Shown: positions 32,830 to 53,190 of the stretch, piece after piece
Layout of the letters: the number at the start of each line of letters is the position of its first letter
How positions within the stretch are numbered: the first letter of the stretch is position 1
Assembly: GCA_918797485.1 (NCBI GenBank)
Contig: CAKKNE010000002.1
Span: 5,456,001 to 5,520,000 of the forward strand
DNA from: Pelagomonas calceolata
Taxonomy: Eukaryota
Direction of reading: 5' to 3'
DNA length: 64,000 bases
Notes under the pieces: generated by a model
Database searches by the model: none
What the model was told of the DNA's origin: nothing
What the model saw: only the letters and a program-made list of their open reading frames with translations
Position numbers and translations under genes: made by a program

Positions 32830-33564
32830 ATGGATGCAATGCCGCACACCAGCGCCATGTGGGCGGCCGCCGACGCCAGCGTGCGCGCGTCGGCGAAGCA
32901 TCCGTTTCTGCTAGCGATGCTCGACGGCACGCTGGCGCCGGTCAAGTTCGAGTACTACATCCGCCAGGACTCGAAGTATTTGCTCGACTTCGGGCTCGCG
33001 CTGCGGCGGCTCGCGGCCCTGGCGGGCGACGAGGAGGAGGCACTGGCTCTGAACAATTTCGCCGACGGCGCCGATATTGCCGAGCGGAGCCTCCACGCGT
33101 CGTTCTTCGCGGCCTGGGGCTTGGGCGAAGACGCCCTCGCGAAGGATGAACAAGCTCCAACGACTCTAGCGTACACGTCGTTTTTGTTGAGATGCGTCGC
33201 CGACGGGTATCGCGAGGGGCTGGCCGCGCTGCTGCCGTGCTTTTGGGTATACCACGACGTTGGCGTCAAGATGCTCGAGTTGCGCGCCACGACGTACCGC
33301 GACGCGACGCGGGCGCCGCAGCTCGACGCGTGGATCGACATGTACGGCGGCGACGCCTTCGCCGACGCCGTCAAGCGCTACCGCGCGCTCGTAGAACGCG
33401 CGGCGGCGGGTGCGGACGAGGCGACGCGCGCGCGCATGACCTACAACTTCCGCCGCGCGTGCGACCTCGAGTGGATGTTCTGGAAGGCGGCGCTCGACGA
33501 GACGCGATGGCCGACCTACGTCTCTGCGGTGCCGATGGTGAGCATGGATAGCATGGACGTGTAG
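32830..33564 (+). CDS. TenA/thiaminase II family protein
   Basis: HPFL..GTL..FEYYIRQD, LLPCFWVY with the catalytic Cys, WIDMY, LEWMFW. Confidence 0.9.
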   Translation: MDAMPHTSAMWAAADASVRASAKHPFLLAMLDGTLAPVKFEYYIRQDSKYLLDFGLALRRLAALAGDEEEALALNNFADGADIAERSLHASFFAAWGLGEDALAKDEQAPTTLAYTSFLLRCVADGYREGLAALLPCFWVYHDVGVKMLELRATTYRDATRAPQLDAWIDMYGGDAFADAVKRYRALVERAAAGADEATRARMTYNFRRACDLEWMFWKAALDETRWPTYVSAVPMVSMDSMDV

Positions 33565-33642
33565 TCTCTAGCCTATAAGTGATCCTGATTGTATTTAACT
33601 GGACCTTAGAAGTGACCTTAGGGTACCCCGCGCGAGGCGCCC

Positions 33643-35166
33643 TCACCGCGTCTTCTCCCAGTCCTGAGGCTGAGGCTGAGGCTCTTCGTCCGAGTCGGAC
33701 TCGTCGTCCTCCTCGCCGCCGCCGATCCAGCTGCGGCAGCGGTCGGCCGCCGTGTTCGCCGTGAGGGTCGAGAGCCACTTGATGGAGGGCCGGGGGCAAC
33801 TCTTGCTGGTGACGGGGCCCGAGAGCATGCGGTAGACCGTCGCGGCGCCGGCGGCCCGCAGTTTGTCGTGCGCCGACAGGTAGCGCGAGAAGTAGCAGAG
33901 CGAGTGTTCCATGTCCACAGCCGTAAGGGGCCTGCGCCGGCCGTCCTTGACCTGGTACGGGAACGCGAGGCCGAGCTTGGCGAATTCGGCGTCAGCGTTC
34001 TTGGCGAGCCAGGCGATGCGCGCGACGACCTCCTCGTCGTCTAGCCGCTTCGCCTTCCAGAGCGCGAGGACCATGTTCTTGGGGCCCGGACCGAAGGAGC
34101 AGAACTCTTCCATGCTCGACACGTCGAGCCGCGGCGCGAATTTCGTGAAATCACTCTTGCAGACGCCGTAGGCGAACGTCAGGAGGCCCTGGCCGCCGAC
34201 GAACTGCCCCGCGCCGGAGAGCAGTTGGACGGCCGCGCACGCCTCCTTCCAGGTCTCGGACGCGGCGAGCTCGGCGACGACGCTGTCGATCTGCTTGAGG
34301 CGCTGGTCGTAGTAGGAATCCACGAGGCGCCTGCCCTGGACCTGGTAGCTCGCTGAGAAGAATGGGCCCGGTTCGTTGCGCATGATTGGCTTTGCGAATC
34401 GGATGAAGTTCTTGACCTCCTCACGGTTGGCCGGGAGGTTGAGGCCCTTCATTTGACCCTTGGACATGCGGAACCAGTCCCCGGGCGTCTGTTCCGTCCA
34501 GCGGCGGAGGAAGTCTACTCGCCAGCCGTCCATCTCCGCGACGCACATGGAGAGAGCCGCCGCGATGCCCTCGGGCGACTCGAGCGTGAGGCCCAGGTGC
34601 TCGATCTTGGCCCGCACGAAGTCCCCCGTCACGCGGTCTCCCGAGTCCAGATAGCGGCCGACGTTGCCCCACTTGGCCACCTCCATGAGTTTCTTCCCAA
34701 AACCCCAGCCTCCTTGGCCCTCCGTCGGCAACTCCGCGGGCGGCAGCTCCACGCCGCTGCCGACGACGCGTTCTCGCGGATACATGCGGCGGCGCTGCGT
34801 CGCCCGGAACCAGAGGAACTCGTAGTAGAGCTTGGCGACGCGCTTGTCCCGCGGGGCGCCACATTCTGCGCTCGTCGGCCCGCTGCCGCCGGATCTCTTC
34901 TGCTTCTTGCGCACGGGCGTGCCGGCCGGCGCGTCGTCGTCGTACGAGTCGTCGTCGCTGCTGCTCTCGTCTTCCATCGGCTGCTCGCGGAGCAACAGGC
35001 GCTCCGGTATTTGCGTCTCTTCGCCGTCGTCGAAGCTCACGTTCCACGTCGTCTCGCCGAGGCGCTTGTCCAGCGTGCCCCTGGCAGGTCCAGCCTTGTA
35101 CTGCACCCAGGCAACGTCTCCATTCTTCCAGACCTTCGCAGCGACGCGGCGGCTCCTGCTGCTCAT
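33643..35166 (-). CDS. Tudor-like domain + aGPT-Pplase1/HMUDK-helical-like DNA-modification domain
   Basis: N-terminal GDVAWVQY..WNVSFDDGEE; KWGNVGRYLD, SFGPGP, LTAVDMEHSLCYFSRY. Confidence 0.65.
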   Translation of the reverse strand: MSSRSRRVAAKVWKNGDVAWVQYKAGPARGTLDKRLGETTWNVSFDDGEETQIPERLLLREQPMEDESSSDDDSYDDDAPAGTPVRKKQKRSGGSGPTSAECGAPRDKRVAKLYYEFLWFRATQRRRMYPRERVVGSGVELPPAELPTEGQGGWGFGKKLMEVAKWGNVGRYLDSGDRVTGDFVRAKIEHLGLTLESPEGIAAALSMCVAEMDGWRVDFLRRWTEQTPGDWFRMSKGQMKGLNLPANREEVKNFIRFAKPIMRNEPGPFFSASYQVQGRRLVDSYYDQRLKQIDSVVAELAASETWKEACAAVQLLSGAGQFVGGQGLLTFAYGVCKSDFTKFAPRLDVSSMEEFCSFGPGPKNMVLALWKAKRLDDEEVVARIAWLAKNADAEFAKLGLAFPYQVKDGRRRPLTAVDMEHSLCYFSRYLSAHDKLRAAGAATVYRMLSGPVTSKSCPRPSIKWLSTLTANTAADRCRSWIGGGEEDDESDSDEEPQPQPQDWEKTR

Positions 35167-42594: not shown

Positions 42595-43962
42595 TTAATA
42601 CAGGTGCCCATCTTTCAGGGCCCCCAGACTACTCTCTCCCCCGGGCCCAATCGAGTACGTTCGAAAGTAGAACGGACTCCCGGCCGAGGGTCTCCTCGCC
42701 CCTCTCTCTCTCCAATTGGCCGCGTCCCAAAGGCCCCACACGAGGCGGTCCAGAAGCAGCGGCGGCGGCAGCGGCGCGGCGTCGGGATCGTCGGCCGGCA
42801 CCCCGCATAAGGTTTTGAGCCCGTGGCCGTCGTCCACCTCGACCAGCGAAGCACACGCGGTTTGCGCCTTGGCGAGCAGCGCCCTCGAGTCTGCAATATC
42901 CACAACGGTGTCGCGCTTCCCGTGGACGACGACATACGGCCCCCCCTCCGGATGACCATGGTCTCCAGACGTTGATGCATCCCAGGCGGGCGGCGCTGTG
43001 CCGCCTGGGTAAAATCGTCGCTCGGGGAATCTTCTGCGCAGGTGTAGAAGAGGAAGACGAATATGTGGGTCACTTCCTCGCCGAAAAGGAAATTCGCGCG
43101 ATGGGTCTCGCAAGATCCGGTGCATAATGTTCCGGTGCGCGGGGCACAGGAGCACCGCCGGACCAATCCAGAAGCCTCGACTAATCAGATCCAGGCACAG
43201 CGCCCCGCCGAAGCTCGAGCCCACGATTACGTCGGGCTTGAAGGCGGCGAGCGCCTCGCGCTGAAGCTCGAGGCACTCCTCGTAGTCGTGCACGAAGCTC
43301 GTGGCCGTCGCGCTGTTCGGCATGGCAACGCAGAGGCTGTGCTCGAACCGCTCCGCCAAATAACGGGCCTTGAGGCCGTGCGGGCCGCTCTCGAGGCCGT
43401 GCACGAAGAGGACGCGGGGCGGACGCGCGGCCTTGCGCGCGGCCTCCTCGCGCCTGACTGCCTCGCGCGCGCGACTGGCTGCCTCGCGCGCGCGCCTGGC
43501 TGCCTCGCGCGCCGGCCTGGCTGCCTCGCGCGCCGCGGCCTCGCGCGCCGCGGCCTCGACCTTGGCCTTGGCCTCCTCGAGGGCCGCTGCCGACGGCGCG
43601 CCGGGCGCCTCGAAGTCGCGGAAAGCTCCAATATCAGACGTATTTTCGACGACTACCATCATCGGCGCGCCGACCGGAACCGCCGTGCCCGCGGGCTGCA
43701 AATGCTTGGCGACGACGCCGTCGTCCCGCGCTTCGAAGTCCACGGTCGCCTTGTCCGTCTCGACCTCCGCTATCGAATCGCCCGCGCCGAAGGCTTCTCC
43801 TTCCTCGACGTTCCACTTCACGAGGGTCCCCAACTCCATCGTTGGGCTCAGCGCGGGCAGACCGACGACGTTGTGCGACGGGTAGGAGAGCGGGCGCCGC
43901 GCGAGGCCCGCGGGCGCTGCCCGGGGCAGCGCAGCGCGCGCGCCGCGCAGCAGGCGCAGCAT
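42595..43962 (-). CDS. Mitochondrial lipoyl domain fused to an alpha/beta hydrolase
   Basis: Transit peptide; LPALSPTM..VETDKATVDFE (lipoyl-Lys); HGLES, GSSFGG, HGKRDTVV, DDGHGL. Confidence 0.8.
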   Translation of the reverse strand: MLRLLRGARAALPRAAPAGLARRPLSYPSHNVVGLPALSPTMELGTLVKWNVEEGEAFGAGDSIAEVETDKATVDFEARDDGVVAKHLQPAGTAVPVGAPMMVVVENTSDIGAFRDFEAPGAPSAAALEEAKAKVEAAAREAAAREAARPAREAARRAREAASRAREAVRREEAARKAARPPRVLFVHGLESGPHGLKARYLAERFEHSLCVAMPNSATATSFVHDYEECLELQREALAAFKPDVIVGSSFGGALCLDLISRGFWIGPAVLLCPAHRNIMHRILRDPSREFPFRRGSDPHIRLPLLHLRRRFPERRFYPGGTAPPAWDASTSGDHGHPEGGPYVVVHGKRDTVVDIADSRALLAKAQTACASLVEVDDGHGLKTLCGVPADDPDAAPLPPPLLLDRLVWGLWDAANWRERGARRPSAGSPFYFRTYSIGPGGESSLGALKDGHLY

Positions 43963-44320
43963 TCCCCCAGGCGAGCGTGCGTTTTACGACGAGCGTGCGC
44001 TGCTCACTCGGCTGCAGCAGTTTACAAGTCGTACCCTCTGGGTACTCGTACCACGACTGCAGCCAATCGGCTGCCCTTCGCCGCGATCCCGGGCGGAACC
44101 CAGCACGGCAGGGAGATGAAATCTGCCATGTGCGGGTTTTACACGCGCTGGGCCAAGCCGGAGGTATATGTAGCTCGCGAAGAGCCCTGCGAGAGGCTAT
44201 TGGAAATCGTTTTTCCCGGCGCTCGGGTGCGGGGTGCGTATGCAGCGCCTCGTTGGGATATTGCCAAAGGCCATAGCGCGACGCTGTGGCACCGCCGCTG
44301 CCCCAATAGCGCGCAAGGGG

Positions 44321-44815
44321 ATGGTGCGTCGAGGAGGACTCCGCCGGGCGGCGAACGTGGTCGTGCGGGAGGCCCGCGCCGCGCGGAAGCAGGTCACAGT
44401 GATGGGCGGCGCCTCCACGCCCGCCGCCGCGAAGATGCGCCCCGTGGCGCACACGCCGGGGCAGCTCGCGGCGGCGGCGGCGTTCGTGCAGGCCTGGCAA
44501 GCGCCGACGCCGGCGCCCGTCGCCGACGACGCGGCGTCGTCGTCGATGGCGTCCTTCGACGACGAGGGCGGTACGCCGTCGCGGCGCACGCTCAGCTTCG
44601 CGGAGAGCGAGACCTTCTCCGAGACGGAGAGCTCGCCGGGCGCGCCGAGCCCGCCGCGCCCGCGACGACGGCCGTGGCGGCATATACACCTCGCGCTGCT
44701 GGCCTGCGCGCTGGCCTCGGGCCGCGCGTCGTTCCGGCGCGAACCCCCGAGGCCGGCGGGAAAGGTGCTCCTACCGGTGCGCGGAGTAGGCCTCGCGGAC
44801 CGGCTGCTCATGTAA
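44321..44815 (+). CDS. Hypothetical protein
   Basis: High-GC3 ATG ORF divergent from the lipoyl-hydrolase gene; no recognisable domain. Confidence 0.45.
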   Translation: MVRRGGLRRAANVVVREARAARKQVTVMGGASTPAAAKMRPVAHTPGQLAAAAAFVQAWQAPTPAPVADDAASSSMASFDDEGGTPSRRTLSFAESETFSETESSPGAPSPPRPRRRPWRHIHLALLACALASGRASFRREPPRPAGKVLLPVRGVGLADRLLM

Positions 44816-44828
44816 AATACAACATTGT

Positions 44829-46157
44829 TTACAAAACCACGCCGCGCGCGATCGTGCGCTTCTTGTCGATCCGCTTGCGGAACTTCCGCCACTCGCAGAG
44901 CTGCACCTGGAGGTCGTAGATCGTGAGCGCGTCACTAATGGCGCCCGCCGGCACCGACGGGAACCGCGCGCGCGTCCGCGCGGCGACCCAGGCCGCCATC
45001 GGCGCGAGGCGCGGCTCCACGTCCTGCGACGCGAGGTGGTCGAAGAGCACTTTCAGGCGCCGTTTCCGGACGGCGTCCCCGCCGCCGCGCGCCCCAAATA
45101 AGTAGTTGAACGCCTCGTCGGCGCCGTCGCCCACCTCGCAGCTCTCGTCGAGGATGCGGAGCTCGGGCCGCCACAAGTGGTTCGTCACCAAGAGGACCTT
45201 GGACATCGTCGGCCCGATGCGGTCGAAGCCCCTATACAACGCGTCGAGGGACCGCATGGAGCACCTGCCCGACGACACAGACGGCCACGCCGCGAGGCCG
45301 ATCTTCGCGAAGTGCGCCATGCGTCTACATATATACGCCGGGTAGCGCTCGCCGCCCTCGCCGCGCTGCGGGTACGAGTTGAACGCCTTCGTGTGCAGCT
45401 TGAGACCGCGGTCGCGCCACGCTACAACTTTCTCGTAGAGCGCGCCGCCCTCCACAAAGGCTGTATCGGGATCTAGGATGCGCGCGCCGCGCCGCTCCTC
45501 GCCTTCATACACCTGATCGGTGTCGAGCGCCCGACTAAAGTAGGGGTACACGACACTCTGGAAGAGCGGGCACCACCTACTTCCAGAAAAGGCCGTCGCC
45601 AGCACGAACTTTTCTTTGTCATTTAAATCCGGCGCCGTCCTTAGCTTCGTCATGAGGAAGAGCTCCATCTCGCAGGTGACGGTGTGCCAGGGCACCCACC
45701 GATCTCCAGCAGCCGGCCCATCCAAGAACTTCGCCATGAGTTGGGAGCAGGACGCGACGTCGTCTGGAGACTGAGTATCGATGCGGCGCATCTCGTTATC
45801 AAAGGCCTCGAAACTCTCATCCACAATCTTGCCGGCCTGCCACCGGAGCTGGCACAGCAAGAACTGTAATAAGTGAGCCAGTTCCTTCTGGTTGATCTTC
45901 GCGCCCGCCATCTCCCTGGCGCTGATCGCCGCCGCTTCGTTTTCTTTCTTCTTCTTTTTTTTGGGCGGCTTCTCGTCCCTCCACAACTTCGGCGCCTCCC
46001 TCCACAAGATGGGCCGCGGCGGTGGCGACGGCGGGCGCGGTTCTACAGGTTGAGGGGTGACTTTGTGCAGGCCGAGCCGCGGCATGGGTTCCGTGGCTTT
46101 TTGGGGCTTCTGCTTCTGGCGCTGCGGCGGCGGCGCTTGAGCTGGGTGGGAGTCCAT
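44829..46157 (-). CDS. aGPT-Pplase/HhH-fold DNA-modification-like protein
   Basis: NLS-like PKKKKKK; HhH-like GFDRIGPTMSK; EVGDGA; LTIYDLQVQLCEWRKF. Confidence 0.6.
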   Translation of the reverse strand: MDSHPAQAPPPQRQKQKPQKATEPMPRLGLHKVTPQPVEPRPPSPPPRPILWREAPKLWRDEKPPKKKKKKENEAAAISAREMAGAKINQKELAHLLQFLLCQLRWQAGKIVDESFEAFDNEMRRIDTQSPDDVASCSQLMAKFLDGPAAGDRWVPWHTVTCEMELFLMTKLRTAPDLNDKEKFVLATAFSGSRWCPLFQSVVYPYFSRALDTDQVYEGEERRGARILDPDTAFVEGGALYEKVVAWRDRGLKLHTKAFNSYPQRGEGGERYPAYICRRMAHFAKIGLAAWPSVSSGRCSMRSLDALYRGFDRIGPTMSKVLLVTNHLWRPELRILDESCEVGDGADEAFNYLFGARGGGDAVRKRRLKVLFDHLASQDVEPRLAPMAAWVAARTRARFPSVPAGAISDALTIYDLQVQLCEWRKFRKRIDKKRTIARGVVL

Positions 46158-46413: not shown

Positions 46414-46614
46414 ATGCTGCCCTGGTACCAGCAGGCTAGGGTCCTGCGCAAGCTCACAATAAGCGCGACGGGCTTGACCGCGTTCGTGTGCGTCCTCCAC
46501 GCGGACTACGGTGAGAAGCCGCACGCCTTTAGTTGGTTGCAATCGTACTACCGGGCCGAGGTCGTCGAGCCTTTACAACGGCAGTACGCGCGCTTAACAA
46601 AGAAGGATGACTAG
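46414..46614 (+). CDS. Small single-TM protein (66 aa)
   Basis: ATG ORF 124 bp downstream of the promoter element; hydrophobic segment followed by ADYGEKPHAFSWLQ. Confidence 0.55.
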   Translation: MLPWYQQARVLRKLTISATGLTAFVCVLHADYGEKPHAFSWLQSYYRAEVVEPLQRQYARLTKKDD

Positions 46615-46711
46615 GCCGGACATGGTCTCCGTGCTAAGCCAAGGCGAGAGTAACTGTGGGAGAAAAGCTTTGAGGGATCTGAAGTGGCGCCAGCGCCAGA
46701 CCGGGAAGACG

Positions 46712-48016
46712 ATGTATGAGCTCGAGATCAATGCCGACCATACTCTGGTACTACAACAAAACCTCGCCTCGGAAAATGATGGAACGGGCACGGGCGGCAC
46801 GGTCTGGCCGGCGGCGCACATGCTCGCGCGGTACCTCGCGAAGAGGCGCTTTCCTAGTGGATGGACGTGTCTAGATCTAGGTACTGGCACGGGCGCCGCC
46901 GGGTTATCAGCGGCTGCGTTGGGCGCCTCGAAGGTCGCCCTCACGGACTTGAGCCACGCGCTGGACATGGCGCGTGTTAATGTGGAACGGAACGATAGCA
47001 ATGCTGAAGTTTTTGCGCTGGACTGGTCAAATCCGAGAGATTCGGAGGCCTTCGATCTCGTCCAACAGTACGATGTCGTGCTCGCGGCGGAGTGTATCCT
47101 ACCAAAGTTGTACCCGCTGGAGCCCTTCGTTGGTTGCCTCGATAATGTGATTGGTCCTTCGACCGAAGCTTTAGTGGCTGTGGAGCTAAGGACGTGGCAC
47201 GAGTTCGATCCTAAATCAAGGTTCGTGGAGTTATGCGCTTCGCAAGGTCTGAGAGTGGAGACAATCACCGAAGGTCTGGACCCTGACTTCATAGCGGACG
47301 ACCTCGAGATTTGGCGCGTGACGCGCGGCGCATCCACAGAAAAGCAGCACGACTGGGTCCAGGTGACGAAGTGGGACGCGGATGAAGTAAGGCTGGACTG
47401 CGATCTCAAAGAGGGGCGCTTTTCTGTTTCTCACGTCCAGCAGCGGAACATTTCGGAGCGGACGTGGCCGTCGTCGATCGCTTCGAGTCGGGCCGTCGTG
47501 ACGGGGTTTTGGGACATTAATAGAGGTGCGCGCGTGCTGGAACTTGGCTCAGGTGGCGGCCTCGCGGCCTGCGTGCTGGCTCGATTGGGGTGCGTAGTCA
47601 CGGCGACGGATTTGCCGGCGAATCTCCCTCACTTGGAAGCGTCCTTAGCAAGGAACGGCGTCCTCGCCAAGGTCCAGGTGCGTCCCTTAGATTGGAGCCA
47701 GTCTCCTGCAAGTGTCGTGCCGTTCCTGGACGAAAGGTGGGATGTCCTGCTGCTCAACGACTGCGCCTACGACGCGGGCGCTTGCGTGCATCTCGCGCGG
47801 ACCGTCGCCGCCTTGTGCTACGCGAATCCCCGAATGCAAATTTTGGTAGCGAACGAGCCGCGGACGGCCCTCGAGGCCTTTTTGCGGGCGCTGGGCCGCT
47901 TCGACTGGTGCCCGCTGTTGGCGCCGTGCCTCGACGCGTCGTCGGCACTCTGGCACGTGGACTGTTTGCCTCCTTCCAGACAGCCGTGTGCGGCCGTGGC
48001 GTTGTACCAGAGCTGA
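46712..48016 (+). CDS. Tandem double Methyltransf_16 (METTL21-like) protein methyltransferase
   Basis: TGGTVWPAA..DLGTGTG..LTD..LDW and TWPSS..ELGSGGG..ATD..LDW. Upstream in-frame ATGs at 46607 and 46622. Confidence 0.85.
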   Translation: MYELEINADHTLVLQQNLASENDGTGTGGTVWPAAHMLARYLAKRRFPSGWTCLDLGTGTGAAGLSAAALGASKVALTDLSHALDMARVNVERNDSNAEVFALDWSNPRDSEAFDLVQQYDVVLAAECILPKLYPLEPFVGCLDNVIGPSTEALVAVELRTWHEFDPKSRFVELCASQGLRVETITEGLDPDFIADDLEIWRVTRGASTEKQHDWVQVTKWDADEVRLDCDLKEGRFSVSHVQQRNISERTWPSSIASSRAVVTGFWDINRGARVLELGSGGGLAACVLARLGCVVTATDLPANLPHLEASLARNGVLAKVQVRPLDWSQSPASVVPFLDERWDVLLLNDCAYDAGACVHLARTVAALCYANPRMQILVANEPRTALEAFLRALGRFDWCPLLAPCLDASSALWHVDCLPPSRQPCAAVALYQS

Positions 48017-48133: not shown

Positions 48134-48712
48134 CTAGGCCTCGCCCCAGTCGATGTCGACGCGCGTCACGCGCGGCTGCTCGGCCAATAAGGTGCGCGTC
48201 ACGTTCGCCTTCGACGGCGCCTCGCCCTCGGGCGCCTCGTTGTTCACGTAGTAGCCGATACGTAAAAATTCTTGGCCCCGGTACGCGCAGCAGACGAGCA
48301 CCACCGTCACGCCTAAGAGGTCCGCGGCCGGGATTTTGGCCGGGTCCGGCGCGTCCGCCGAGAGCACAAATCTAGAAGTGCCCGCCGGCACGGGGCCCAC
48401 CTCGACGTCCGCCAGCGTTTGGTCTCTGGCGCTGTCGTCCGCTGAACCAACATAAACGACCGACCATTCCAAATCGCCCGGTAAAGCTCTCGTACTTTCA
48501 AACGTAATTTCAAAATCCAGGTCATCCCCAAAGTTCGCCGGGTTCTTGAGCGGGGCGACGTTCGCCACGGACACGGGAGAGGGCTGCGTCTGCTTCACCT
48601 GCGGCGGCGGCTCGTGCGAGGCCGCCGGCGCGTCGTCGGCGAGGAAGTCGTTGTCGTCCTCCATGGGCTCGTCCTCGTCGGAGCGCGGCTCGTCCGCCGC
48701 GAAGTCGGCCAT
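48134..48712 (-). CDS. ASF1: Histone chaperone ASF1
   Basis: NPANF..FEITFE..DLEWSVVYVGSA..DQTL..VGPVP..EFLRIGYYVNNE..PRVT. Confidence 0.95.
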   Translation of the reverse strand: MADFAADEPRSDEDEPMEDDNDFLADDAPAASHEPPPQVKQTQPSPVSVANVAPLKNPANFGDDLDFEITFESTRALPGDLEWSVVYVGSADDSARDQTLADVEVGPVPAGTSRFVLSADAPDPAKIPAADLLGVTVVLVCCAYRGQEFLRIGYYVNNEAPEGEAPSKANVTRTLLAEQPRVTRVDIDWGEA

Positions 48713-48906
48713 CTTCTCCGTGGCGCGCGGCTCTTGTTCGGCTGTGGCGCGCAGGTCGTCCCTTGGCGCGCTGACGTGCGGCGGGCGGGTGCGGCGCAGC
48801 CGAGCGCTCACGCGTGACAGCGCGGGCAAAAAGCAAGTGCCACACGGCCACCGGGGTGATCCGTTTCGCACTCCGTTGCGCGAGCACTCAAATCGGCCGC
48901 GGGCTT

Positions 48907-48930
48907 GCTAGTATCTCTACAGTCCGCTAG
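48907..48930. promoter_or_regulatory. CTAG-flanked upstream element, copy 16
   Basis: GCTAGTATCTCTACAGTCCGCTAG in a divergent promoter. Confidence 0.65.
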
Positions 48931-51120: not shown

Positions 51121-51374
51121 TTGCGTTTTTTGGCAATTTGCCCCGCTGCACGCGTAGCGTTGGACTCAGTGCGTCAAAATTGCCGTGCGGGTGCCTAAGT
51201 TTCACACCTGAGCCGCAGCAATAGAAACGCGCCAAAACGCAGTGCCAGCATTGCTGCCAGTGTGCAGCCTGCTGCAAGCACCCACGCCGCGTCGCAGCAA
51301 GCGCAGTATTGGCGCGTGATCAGTGGAGCAGCGTTGCAGCAAGCACAGCAATTGGCACGTGATCACTGCAAGCA

Positions 51375-52187
51375 ATGGCGGCACTCGACGAGACGGACGC
51401 CGCCGAGGACAATGAGGACATCTTCGACCCGGGCCTCTTCCTCAACGAGGACTACGTCGAGCACGCCTACGAGCTAGGAGACGGCGCCCAGCAAACGTGC
51501 CTCTGCCTCGAGGGCGCGTCGACGGACCACGATTTGACGGGTCAGGTCGTCTGGCCGGTGTCGGTCGCGCTCGCGCGTTTTGTGGCCGCGCGTCTGGATT
51601 CATTGAAGGGCCGGCGCGTCGTCGAGGTCGGCGCGGGCACGGCGCTCGCGGGCCTCGCGGCGGCCCGCGCCGCTTGCGCGAGTGTTGTGCTGACGGACGG
51701 CTCCGACGTGATCATGCAATTGCTCGAGCGCGCGCTGGCGTCATCAAACGTGACCGCAACTCTAAAAGCGCCGACGTCCGCGCGCAAGCTGCTCTGGGGC
51801 GACCGCGCGTCCTTCGACGGCATTGGAACTTGTGATGTCGTCCTGGGCGCGGACGTCGTGTGCTGGCCGCGCCTCGTGGAGCCTTTACTACAAACCGTGC
51901 GCGCGTTATTGCGGGGGTCGGACGACGGCGTGTTTTACTGCGGTTTTGTTAGTAGGAGCCAATTGACGGAGCGGCTCTTCTTCGAGAAAAGCGAGCGTTT
52001 TGGTTTTGTGATACGCGAGCACACTCTAGAATCCTTCCTGCCGGACCCCGTGCCCGAGGCCTGTCGCTCGAATATGGAGTTGAGGGTACTCGAGCTCCGG
52101 CTCCGCGGCGACGCGCGCGGCGCGCCGGACGTCTTCGCTTCGGACGACCCGGCGAATGCTGAAGCCACGGGCGACATCGCGTGTTGA
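51375..52187 (+). CDS. Methyltransf_16 family protein methyltransferase
   Basis: TDHDLTGQVVWP, EVGAGT, LTDG, LLWG, GADV. Confidence 0.88.
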   Translation: MAALDETDAAEDNEDIFDPGLFLNEDYVEHAYELGDGAQQTCLCLEGASTDHDLTGQVVWPVSVALARFVAARLDSLKGRRVVEVGAGTALAGLAAARAACASVVLTDGSDVIMQLLERALASSNVTATLKAPTSARKLLWGDRASFDGIGTCDVVLGADVVCWPRLVEPLLQTVRALLRGSDDGVFYCGFVSRSQLTERLFFEKSERFGFVIREHTLESFLPDPVPEACRSNMELRVLELRLRGDARGAPDVFASDDPANAEATGDIAC

Positions 52188-52260: not shown

Positions 52261-53010
52261 CTACCGCCGTCGGCCGCGCCCTCGCCCACGCCCCCGCGGC
52301 GCGCGGCCGCGGCCTCGAGGCGCCCACCGCGTCGCCGGCGGCGGCGGCTCGGCCATGGATACGACGGGCGGCGGCAGTTCATCCGCGACCCGCCGGAAGC
52401 GCACGAGGTCGACGGCGACGTCCCGTGAATTGTCCGCATGGAACGCGTACGTTTTTGGCAAATCAAAACGCAGCTCGGCGACGACGTCCGCGGCCGCGCC
52501 CCACTCGTGCGCTCGTTTCAGGAGGAAGGCGCGCGTCGACGTCTTGTGCAGCGAGTAGACCACGTCACATAATGAGAGAGCGGCCCTTACAAAAGCAGCG
52601 TCGATTCCCTTTTTCCGCGTGCCGAAGGGTGGGTTCATGACGCACGTGTCGAAGGCGTTGCGCAGCGGGAGTTGCGCGTTATCATCAATGCGACACCTCA
52701 CAAAATCGACGACGTGGTCGACGTCGCATTCTGCGATGTTAGTTCTCGCCAAAGCAAGGGCGTCCTCGTCGCAATCCACACCGACCACAATGCTAGCACC
52801 CGCCAGCGCGCAGGCGCAGCTCAATATACCCGTGCCGCAGCCCAGATCTAAGACACGCTTGTCCAAGACGTCGTCCTGTATGTGTGTGATGATGGCGGCG
52901 CCGAGTTCGGCCGACGTCGCGTACTGTTCTAGTTCGAACTTTATTTGATCGGTGTCGAACGGTTTCAGCTGTTGGAGTGCTGCTTCTAACGAGAAGTCCT
53001 TCTTTCCCAT
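52261..53010 (-). CDS. METTL5: METTL5-like rRNA N6-adenine methyltransferase
   Basis: LEQYAT, DLGCGTG, MNPPFGT, VYSLHKTSTR, FDLPKTYAFH; RG-rich tail. Confidence 0.92.
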   Translation of the reverse strand: MGKKDFSLEAALQQLKPFDTDQIKFELEQYATSAELGAAIITHIQDDVLDKRVLDLGCGTGILSCACALAGASIVVGVDCDEDALALARTNIAECDVDHVVDFVRCRIDDNAQLPLRNAFDTCVMNPPFGTRKKGIDAAFVRAALSLCDVVYSLHKTSTRAFLLKRAHEWGAAADVVAELRFDLPKTYAFHADNSRDVAVDLVRFRRVADELPPPVVSMAEPPPPATRWAPRGRGRAPRGRGRGRGRRR

Positions 53011-53190
53011 CTCTTGTGCTGCGCTGCTGCACTGAGGCTGCAGTGCTGCTGCTCAGGCTAGGTATTCACTGCAGCTGGTCATCCACTGTCTGCACGGATG
53101 CATCCAGCAGCGCAGCCGTCTGTGCGCGTAGCGTTCCAGTTCACAGCAAGACGTCCCGTACCCTGGCTTTTGCCGGCGTGCAAACATGGT

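What the first reader, a model, noticed from the sequence alone, without database searches (positions are those of the whole stretch)
44829..46157. Second aGPT-Pplase/AADT-like gene, with an intact CE motif, 10 kb away
Seen: HhH-like GFDRIGPTMSK, EVGDGA (GPGA-like), C-terminal LTIYDLQVQLCEWRKF, and a poly-Lys NLS-like stretch. Two highly diverged members in 64 kb suggest an expanded nuclear family. Inference: this alga may write or process an undescribed DNA base modification, and this copy is the better catalytic candidate.
Basis: partly seen in the sequence, partly recalled or inferred. Interest (0 to 1): 0.7.

Follow-up and report, generated by a model that had tools for sequence, protein, structure and literature searches.

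The report
Algal offshoot of phage DNA-modifying family
This is a real, transcribed algal gene from an unannotated eukaryotic branch of a phage protein family tied to modified thymine in DNA; it has relatives in dinoflagellates, whose DNA is rich in such a base, and it likely acts on a modified DNA base, but it lacks the glutamate that the known amino-acid-attaching enzymes need.

Summary
The ORF, its motifs and the paralogue 9.7 kb away are real, and both genes are transcribed. Pfam misses the protein. Profile comparison (probability 90%, E 1.7e-6) and fold searches place it next to phage aGPT-Pplase clade 1 (PF18723), not the amino acid:DNA transferases (AADT, PF18724; 1.6%).

AADT uses Glu-x-x-x-Cys followed by Lys. 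CE is the clade-1 signature, and M6's clade-1 protein was dispensable in reconstitution. Here the AADT Glu is Gln (67 of 67 relatives); the neighbouring gene keeps it.

The family is found in pelagophytes and a dictyochophyte. It also has a 30-member clade whose four named members are dinoflagellates, organisms with abundant 5-hydroxymethyluracil (5hmU). Some relatives carry MBD-like or Tudor-like domains.

Best reading (0.45): a nuclear base-flipping enzyme using Cys421 on a C5-modified pyrimidine, probably 5hmU. Substrate and product are unshown. No 5hmU kinase was seen in the window, and the genome was unavailable. The scan's notes held nothing on this family. Verdict: new variant of a known kind.

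The parts
44829..46157 (-). The gene in question: intronless, 442 aa; Pro/Lys-rich N-terminal ~85 aa, then an all-helical HhH-fold domain related to aGPT-Pplase clade 1 (PF18723)
45945..45962 (-). Run of six lysines (residues 66-71), possible nuclear localisation signal
   Evidence: sequence; function inferred
45663..45698 (-). Family motif W154-x-P156-x-H158...E165, in place of the clade-1 F-x-N-x-x-R-x-x-D motif
45198..45230 (-). HhH hairpin GFDRIGPTMSK (G315, T317, K320 conserved)
45120..45137 (-). EVGDGA, aligned to clade-1 GPG; Gly343 and Gly345 at the positions where AADT has its conserved Asp
44880..44927 (-). Last-helix motif with Q417 (AADT Glu243 position), C421 (AADT Cys247 position) and E422
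33643..35166 (-). Paralogue: PF18723 member of another subfamily, keeping E-H-S-L-C and N-x-x-R-x-x-D but with CY in place of CE; transcribed

Best explanation
The gene encodes a transcribed 442-residue protein of a eukaryotic offshoot of the phage aGPT-Pplase clade-1 family, with a predicted helix-hairpin-helix fold, that likely works in the nucleus by flipping a C5-modified pyrimidine (most likely 5-hydroxymethyluracil) out of DNA and attacking its C6 with Cys421. Shown: the ORF, transcription, purifying selection, clade-1 rather than AADT affinity, the conserved Cys in the AADT Cys register, and Gln in place of the AADT Glu. Predicted: the fold. Inferred: nuclear DNA binding (HhH hairpin, lysine run, MBD-like and Tudor-like partners in relatives), base flipping and a covalent Cys adduct (by analogy to PUGT), and 5hmU as substrate (from the phage context and the dinoflagellate clade). 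It is probably not an amino-acid transferase on phosphorylated 5hmU: the metal-binding Glu/Thr and the phosphate-pocket helix are missing. My preferred outcome is turnover of the C5 group (removal, or reduction back to thymine) over adding a new one; that last step is a guess.
For: Profile vs 18 phage clade-1 sequences: probability 89.9, E 1.7e-6, 221 columns, score 52.8 against a maximum of 19.9 in 30 block-shuffled controls and 12.5 reversed; vs 24 AADTs 1.6%. Atlas top hits are PF18723 clusters at 0.96-0.97. AlphaFold model pLDDT 94. Its top 8 viral matches are 6 named clade-1 proteins and 2 unnamed, best E 7.3e-4. Best PDB match is PUGT: Z 10.3, rmsd 4.1, 221 aligned; Z 9.7 in the wide search. 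PUGT flips a base and attacks C6 with Cys247; C421 is kept in 65 of 67 rows across pelagophytes and the dinoflagellate clade. All 4 named members among 13 looked-up rows of the 30-row clade are dinoflagellates, where 5hmU is 22-45% of thymidine (PMC11572971). A hand-picked stretch of P0126 matches MBD2 at E 7.8e-5. Pfam MBD is weak in P0135 and P0167 and Agenet weak in P0027. In L093 an orthologue lies about 150 bases behind a canonical PF18723 gene (E 3e-28) that also has Gln at -4. Borohydride turns the AADT intermediate into thymidine, and these phages convert part of their 5hmU to thymine (PMC8989533).
Against: No activity is reported for any clade-1 protein in the passages I read; M6 gp55 was dispensable, and the SP10 kinase works without its C-terminal part. 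PUGT, QNG1 and AGOG are nearly tied (Z 10.3, 9.6, 9.0), and the tool warns that Z under about 13 for helical proteins may mean only a common arrangement; Foldseek on the PDB found nothing at E<=0.001. The dinoflagellate clade alone matches clade 1 at only 2.5%. The clade-1 N/R/D triad is lost, so the substrate may differ. No 5hmU kinase was found in the window, and the ten listed Atlas look-alike clusters of M6 gp54 are 96-100% viral. I found no paper on 5hmU in pelagophytes. In Amphidinium 5hmU fell only 15-20% in S phase, described as replication-coupled dilution, which gives no sign of active erasure. This protein has no accessory reader domain itself.
Confidence: 0.45

Rival explanations
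1. It is a non-catalytic DNA or chromatin binder (a reader of a modified base or a scaffold). The conserved Cys, Gln and Glu would then be structural or used for recognition.
For: Clade 1 was dispensable in reconstitution and Pfam calls it the kinase's helical domain. The AADT Glu is Gln and the AADT Asp position is Gly. Mag2, titled only a glycosylase homolog in the PDB listing (recalled as catalytically inactive), shares the fold (Z 7.3-7.6). C421 is Ser or Ala in 2 of 67 rows.
Against: Many polar residues stay nearly invariant across lineages at about 25% identity (Q103, H158, E165, T256, T317, K320, Q417, C421, E422), which is more typical of an active site (inference).
Confidence: 0.2
2. 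It is a DNA glycosylase or lyase for an oxidised or mismatched pyrimidine, in the manner of MBD4, with a rebuilt active site (K320, E165 or E422).
For: HhH glycosylases fill most of the structural hit list (AGOG Z 9.0, Mag1 8.0). MBD-like fusions occur in 4 of 30 rows of the dinoflagellate clade; the MBD plus HhH layout of MBD4 is recalled, not from a call.
Against: The HhH position that holds the catalytic Lys in bifunctional glycosylases (recalled) is Thr in 66 of 67 rows. The Asp position is Gly; D344 is kept in 32 of 37 rows outside the dinoflagellate clade but is mostly V, T or I inside it. Sequence affinity is to PF18723, with no solved glycosylase found by sequence.
Confidence: 0.17
3. 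It acts on RNA or a free modified nucleotide, like the queuine salvage hydrolase QNG1, not on genomic DNA.
For: QNG1 ties with PUGT structurally (Z 9.5-9.6 over about 240 residues).
Against: Chromatin-type partner domains in relatives. Phage relatives sit beside thymidylate synthase or dUMP hydroxymethylase genes.
Confidence: 0.1
4. It is a true amino acid or amine:DNA transferase acting on phosphorylated 5hmU.
For: Cys in register with Cys247; PUGT is the top PDB hit. Phage SP10 makes glutamylthymine and is listed with a clade-1 domain but no clade-2 gene (PMC5889632 Table 3), so clade 1 may transfer groups.
Against: The essential Glu is Gln in 67 of 67 rows; profile match to AADT 1.6%. The structural alignment stops at PUGT residue 258, before Lys261, Asp262 and Glu265 of the phosphate pocket. 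No kinase was seen in the window.
Confidence: 0.08

Closest known systems
aGPT-Pplase clade 1 / Pfam PF18723 HMUDK_hel (M6 gp55, phiW-14 gp72, SP10 gp186 C-terminal domain, phiRSL1 ORF231)
   Same: Profile homology over 221 columns; top viral fold matches; CE motif, G-x-G loop and K-x-x-T-x-A-[FY] segment. Gln at -4 also occurs in 4 of 18 phage members and in the three 'QFQLCE' proteins of L093, L124 and L125.
   Different: Below the Pfam cut-off (0 of 77 relatives pass, 3 give weak hits). N-x-x-R-x-x-D is replaced by P-x-H...E; Thr in place of Phe in the HhH; no kinase or dUMP hydroxymethylase beside it; found only in eukaryote-type records here.
Amino acid:DNA transferase, PF18724 (M6 gp51; PaMx11 gp46/PUGT, PDB 8z2m and 8z2n)
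   Same: Fold (Z 9.7-10.3, rmsd 4.1-4.4, 9-10% identity) and Cys register.
   Different: Glu243 is Gln, Thr244 is Val, Trp146 is Thr; the Asp175 and Lys150 positions are Gly and Val (K320 lies one residue off); the phosphate-pocket helix is not aligned; profile match 1.6%.
HhH glycosylases and relatives (AGOG, Mag1/AlkA, endonuclease III, OGG1) and QNG1/DUF2419
   Same: Two-lobed helical HhH fold (Z 5.3-9.6).
   Different: Canonical catalytic Lys and Asp positions (recalled) are Thr and Gly; a conserved Cys-Glu helix is shared with PF18723 instead.
Dinoflagellate TET/JBP 5hmU system (PMC11572971)
   Same: A possible source of substrate for the dinoflagellate relatives.
   Different: That paper concerns the writer of 5hmU. 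My term searches in its main text for reader, removal and MBD found nothing; no link to this family is shown.

Membership tests
aGPT-Pplase clade 1 (PF18723) | Pfam score at or above the curated cut-off (25 bits) | tested here: not met
   No hit for the protein; best relative P0011 24.2 bits, 0 of 77 pass
aGPT-Pplase clade 1 (PF18723) | Domain-wide homology by profile-profile comparison | tested here: met
   Probability 89.9, E 1.7e-6, score 52.8 vs shuffled maximum 19.9
aGPT-Pplase clade 1 (PF18723) | All-helical HhH fold like clade-1 proteins | tested here: met
   Predicted model pLDDT 94; top viral matches are clade 1, best E 7.3e-4, TM 0.42
aGPT-Pplase clade 1 (PF18723) | C-terminal CE motif and G-P-G loop | tested here: met
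   C421 65/67, E422 67/67; G343-x-G345 66/67, middle residue not Pro
aGPT-Pplase clade 1 (PF18723) | N-terminal F-x-N-x-x-R-x-x-D motif (N, R, D near-invariant in the phage set) | tested here: not met
   Aligned positions are P156, T159, C162
aGPT-Pplase clade 1 (PF18723) | Occurrence with 5hmU kinase or dUMP hydroxymethylase genes | tested here: inconclusive
   None in 43 window ORFs scanned or by tblastn with gp54; genome not held
Amino acid:DNA transferase (PF18724) | Catalytic Cys (Cys247) | tested here: met
   C421 in register
Amino acid:DNA transferase (PF18724) | Essential Glu four residues before the Cys, with Thr, binding metal | tested here: not met
   Q417 in 67/67 and V418 in 66/67, against E in 24/24 AADTs
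Amino acid:DNA transferase (PF18724) | FGPW motif with Trp146 and Lys150; acidic phosphate pocket (Asp262, Glu265) | tested here: not met
   T317 and V321 by sequence alignment; structural alignment ends at PUGT 258
Amino acid:DNA transferase (PF18724) | Transfer of an amino acid or amine to 5-PmdU DNA | not testable with these tools
   Needs an in vitro assay
HhH-GPD DNA glycosylase | HhH fold | tested here: met
HhH-GPD DNA glycosylase | Catalytic Asp after the GPD loop; Lys two residues after the second HhH Gly in bifunctional members (positions recalled) | tested here: inconclusive
   Gly and Thr by sequence alignment, but no residue-level structural superposition was available and D344, E165, E422 or K320 could substitute

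The most novel reading that the evidence does not exclude
Pelagophytes and dinoflagellates share a phage-derived, chromatin-targeted enzyme family that processes 5-hydroxymethyluracil in nuclear DNA by covalent cysteine catalysis, either erasing it or turning it into an undescribed base. It would be the missing downstream enzyme of the dinoflagellate 5hmU mark and would point to the unknown job of phage clade-1 proteins.
Probability: 0.3. Interest if true: 0.88.

Novelty: new variant of a known kind. Interest (0 to 1): 0.58.

Why it matters
Dinoflagellates replace 22-45% of thymidine with 5hmU and its writer is known (PMC11572971), but in the passages I read nothing is named that reads or processes it. 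This subfamily falls below the Pfam cut-off, has named members in four dinoflagellates, keeps the catalytic cysteine, and is sometimes fused to MBD-like domains. That makes it a concrete candidate to assay. A small intronless pelagophyte member is an easy protein to express. A result would also bear on what phage clade-1 proteins do. The mere presence of PF18723 in stramenopiles is probably already in print (recalled from the Pfam text and Iyer et al. 2013, which I could not open), and that limits the novelty.

Tried and rejected
Whole-genome paralogue count and kinase or TET/JBP search: impossible, no genome held. Direct comparison of the two window genes: not significant. Sequence searches of the PDB: only chance hits. 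Foldseek on the PDB: nothing at E<=0.001. Viral or prokaryotic members of this subfamily: none by pattern scans (0 of 28 viral stretches; 0 of 4 prokaryote-genome stretches) or by tblastn in phages; these scans are insensitive, so absence is not shown. Neighbouring gene's family in viruses: none (0 of 48 stretches). A PDB-wide structural search for the neighbour's model never ran. An Atlas look-up of the MBD-like region did not complete. A recalled dinoflagellate spliced-leader motif was found in 0 of 123 loci, so the metagenome transcripts were not assigned that way. A superfamily tree could not place the subfamily's origin: long branches meet. The careful family tree did not finish and the quick tree was used. 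'Recent tandem duplication' is rejected. 'Conserved cluster' is not shown: 1 of 34 metagenome loci had a PF18723 neighbour, only 7 of the 34 were 4.5 kb or longer, and L093 shares no other gene with the window. Fused kinase or TET domains: none in the 77 relatives or those rescanned. Iyer et al. 2013 is not held. Library searches found no paper on eukaryotic members or this subfamily; most subscription papers are not searched. Scan notes: one unrelated hit, otherwise nothing.

Full report
Observation. The exact protein is on record in NCBI, UniRef and MMETSP. Four poly(A) runs from one sample cover it on the expected strand with no splice joints; 110-287 reads were laid per run on 3.4 kb, and depth is near zero over the last ~250 bases. 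dN/dS against five orthologous loci is 0.07-0.35. The other member lies at 33643-35166, passes the PF18723 cut-off, is transcribed and is 9,662 bases away. The other neighbours scanned are ordinary eukaryotic genes (43 ORFs). No genome is held. From named relatives the host is inferred to be a pelagophyte alga.

Family. The protein has no Pfam or PHROG hit. Searches gave 40 and 146 relatives, reduced to 67 non-redundant full domains out of 124. The quick tree splits them into 37 and 30 rows. The 37 rows hold the orthologues (Aureococcus, Chrysophaeum, Aureoumbra), a second pelagophyte paralogue group (Pelagomonas P0226, Aureococcus) and Pseudopedinella. Of the 30-row clade I looked up 13 rows; 4 carry names, all dinoflagellates (two Symbiodinium, Polykrikos, Gonyaulax). 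No viral or prokaryotic member was found by insensitive scans.

Which known family. Four lines point to aGPT-Pplase clade 1 (PF18723). Weak Pfam hits appear in 3 of 77 relatives. The Atlas top hits are PF18723 clusters at 0.96-0.97. The AlphaFold model (pLDDT 94) has clade-1 proteins as its best viral matches. A profile comparison with 18 phage clade-1 sequences gives probability 89.9 and score 52.8, against 19.9 at most for 30 shuffles; against 24 AADTs it gives 1.6%. M6 gp51 was confirmed as PF18724 and gp55 as PF18723. In the PDB the best match is the AADT PUGT (Z 10.3, rmsd 4.1, 221 residues), nearly tied with QNG1 (9.6) and AGOG (9.0). None of the listed PDB rows is a clade-1 protein, so this shows the superfamily only.

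The catalytic argument. In PUGT, Cys247 attacks C6 and Glu243 with Thr244 binds a metal next to O4 (PMC11472151; I read the abstract and outline, Results parts 1-2 of 3, and the reaction scheme). Mutating the Cys or the nearby Glu abolishes AADT activity, and M6 gp55 was not needed (PMC8989533; passages plus sections 15 and 23; supplements not seen). In my alignments AADTs read E-T-x-L-C-K (E, C, K each 24 of 24). Phage clade 1 has CE in 17 of 18, with E (10) or Q (4) at -4. The neighbour's family reads E-H-x-L-C-Y. This family reads Q-V-x-L-C-E with Q in 67 of 67. So CE is not the AADT pair, and on AADT criteria the neighbour is the closer match. This family has also replaced the clade-1 N-x-x-R-x-x-D motif with a conserved P156, H158, E165 set, has Thr and Lys in the HhH, and has Gly where AADT keeps an Asp. 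It is a rebuilt site around a kept cysteine, not a decayed one.

Context. Relatives carry chromatin-type partners. MBD-like repeats occur in 4 of 30 dinoflagellate-clade rows (seeds picked by eye; independent support MBD2 E 7.8e-5 and weak Pfam MBD). A Tudor-like domain occurs in 11 of 67 rows and an unnamed 50-residue NPK domain in 8 of 67, both by profiles seeded from the same set. The window's protein has none of these. In metagenome locus L093 an 81%-identical orthologue lies about 150 bases behind a canonical PF18723 gene with Gln at -4, whose nearest relatives are phage proteins; one of these (L124) lies near a thymidylate-synthase-family gene. Pelagophytes thus hold at least three deeply separate subfamilies, whose mutual order the tree cannot resolve. 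Linkage was seen in 1 of 34 loci, most of them too short to tell. P0009 and P0268 share a contig length of 53,529, which hints at another case but was not checked.

Mechanism. Most likely (0.45) this is a nuclear base-flipping enzyme that forms a Cys421 adduct with a C5-modified pyrimidine, probably 5hmU. Dinoflagellate DNA holds 22-45% 5hmU made by TET/JBP enzymes (PMC11572971, passages). Against this: no clade-1 activity is reported in what I read, no kinase was seen, I found no report of 5hmU in pelagophytes, and the cell-cycle data show dilution, not erasure. Rivals are a non-catalytic reader (0.2), a glycosylase (0.17), an RNA or nucleotide enzyme (0.1) and a true AADT (0.08).

Novelty. 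It works like, and descends from, aGPT-Pplase clade 1, but fails the Pfam cut-off and one defining motif; it is not an AADT. That PF18723 occurs in fungi and stramenopiles I recall from the Pfam text and Iyer et al. 2013, which is not held; its supplement may already list this subfamily. Library searches found no paper on it or on dinoflagellate members; PMC4738411 and PMC13092281 (passages) do not cover it. The scan's notes had nothing relevant. Verdict: new variant of a known kind, interest 0.58.

Noticed in passing
L093:8333-9661 (+): A canonical PF18723 gene (E 3e-28) of a third subfamily, directly upstream of the orthologue. It groups with two phage proteins (L124, L125) at support 100, which suggests a separate gain from phage.
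   Followed up: partly
L124:5923-10508 and L125:5947-12713: Phage clade-1 genes with Gln at -4. L124 has a thymidylate-synthase-family and an HD-domain gene nearby; L125 has a weak TET-associated glycosyltransferase hit and a P-loop ORF. No AADT hit among the 16 ORFs scanned.
   Followed up: partly
window 34810-35166 (-): The N-terminus of the neighbouring PF18723 gene looks Tudor/SH3-like by eye, but had no Pfam hit and no hit to my Tudor-like profile.
   Followed up: partly
proteins P0007, P0008, P0012-P0015, P0021, P0088: A ~50-residue domain starting NPK, once or twice, at either end, in pelagophyte-side and dinoflagellate-clade relatives; no convincing Pfam name.
   Followed up: partly
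window 33402-34056: RNA reads in all four runs show a joint skipping 630 bases with non-canonical ends, loose ends at 33382 and 34056, and a T>C difference at 34042 in the same reads. It may be a structural allele, an insertion or a library artefact at the 3' end of the neighbouring gene.
   Followed up: no
window 42595-43962 (-): One frame joins a biotin/lipoyl-carrier domain to an alpha/beta hydrolase (UPF0227-like) domain.
   Followed up: no
window 46607-48016 (+), 51363-52187 (+), 52261-53052 (-), 48134-48907 (-): The gene is head-to-head with a two-domain METTL21-type lysine methyltransferase; two more methyltransferases and an ASF1 histone chaperone lie within 7 kb.
   Followed up: no
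window 44174-44815 (+): An ORF without Pfam hit that ends 14 bases from this gene's stop, with low RNA depth, and is conserved in L090, L091 and L098.
   Followed up: no
PMC5889632 Table 3: The table lists M6 gp51 as clade 1 and gp55 as clade 2; the Pfam scan and PMC8989533 give the reverse.
   Followed up: yes
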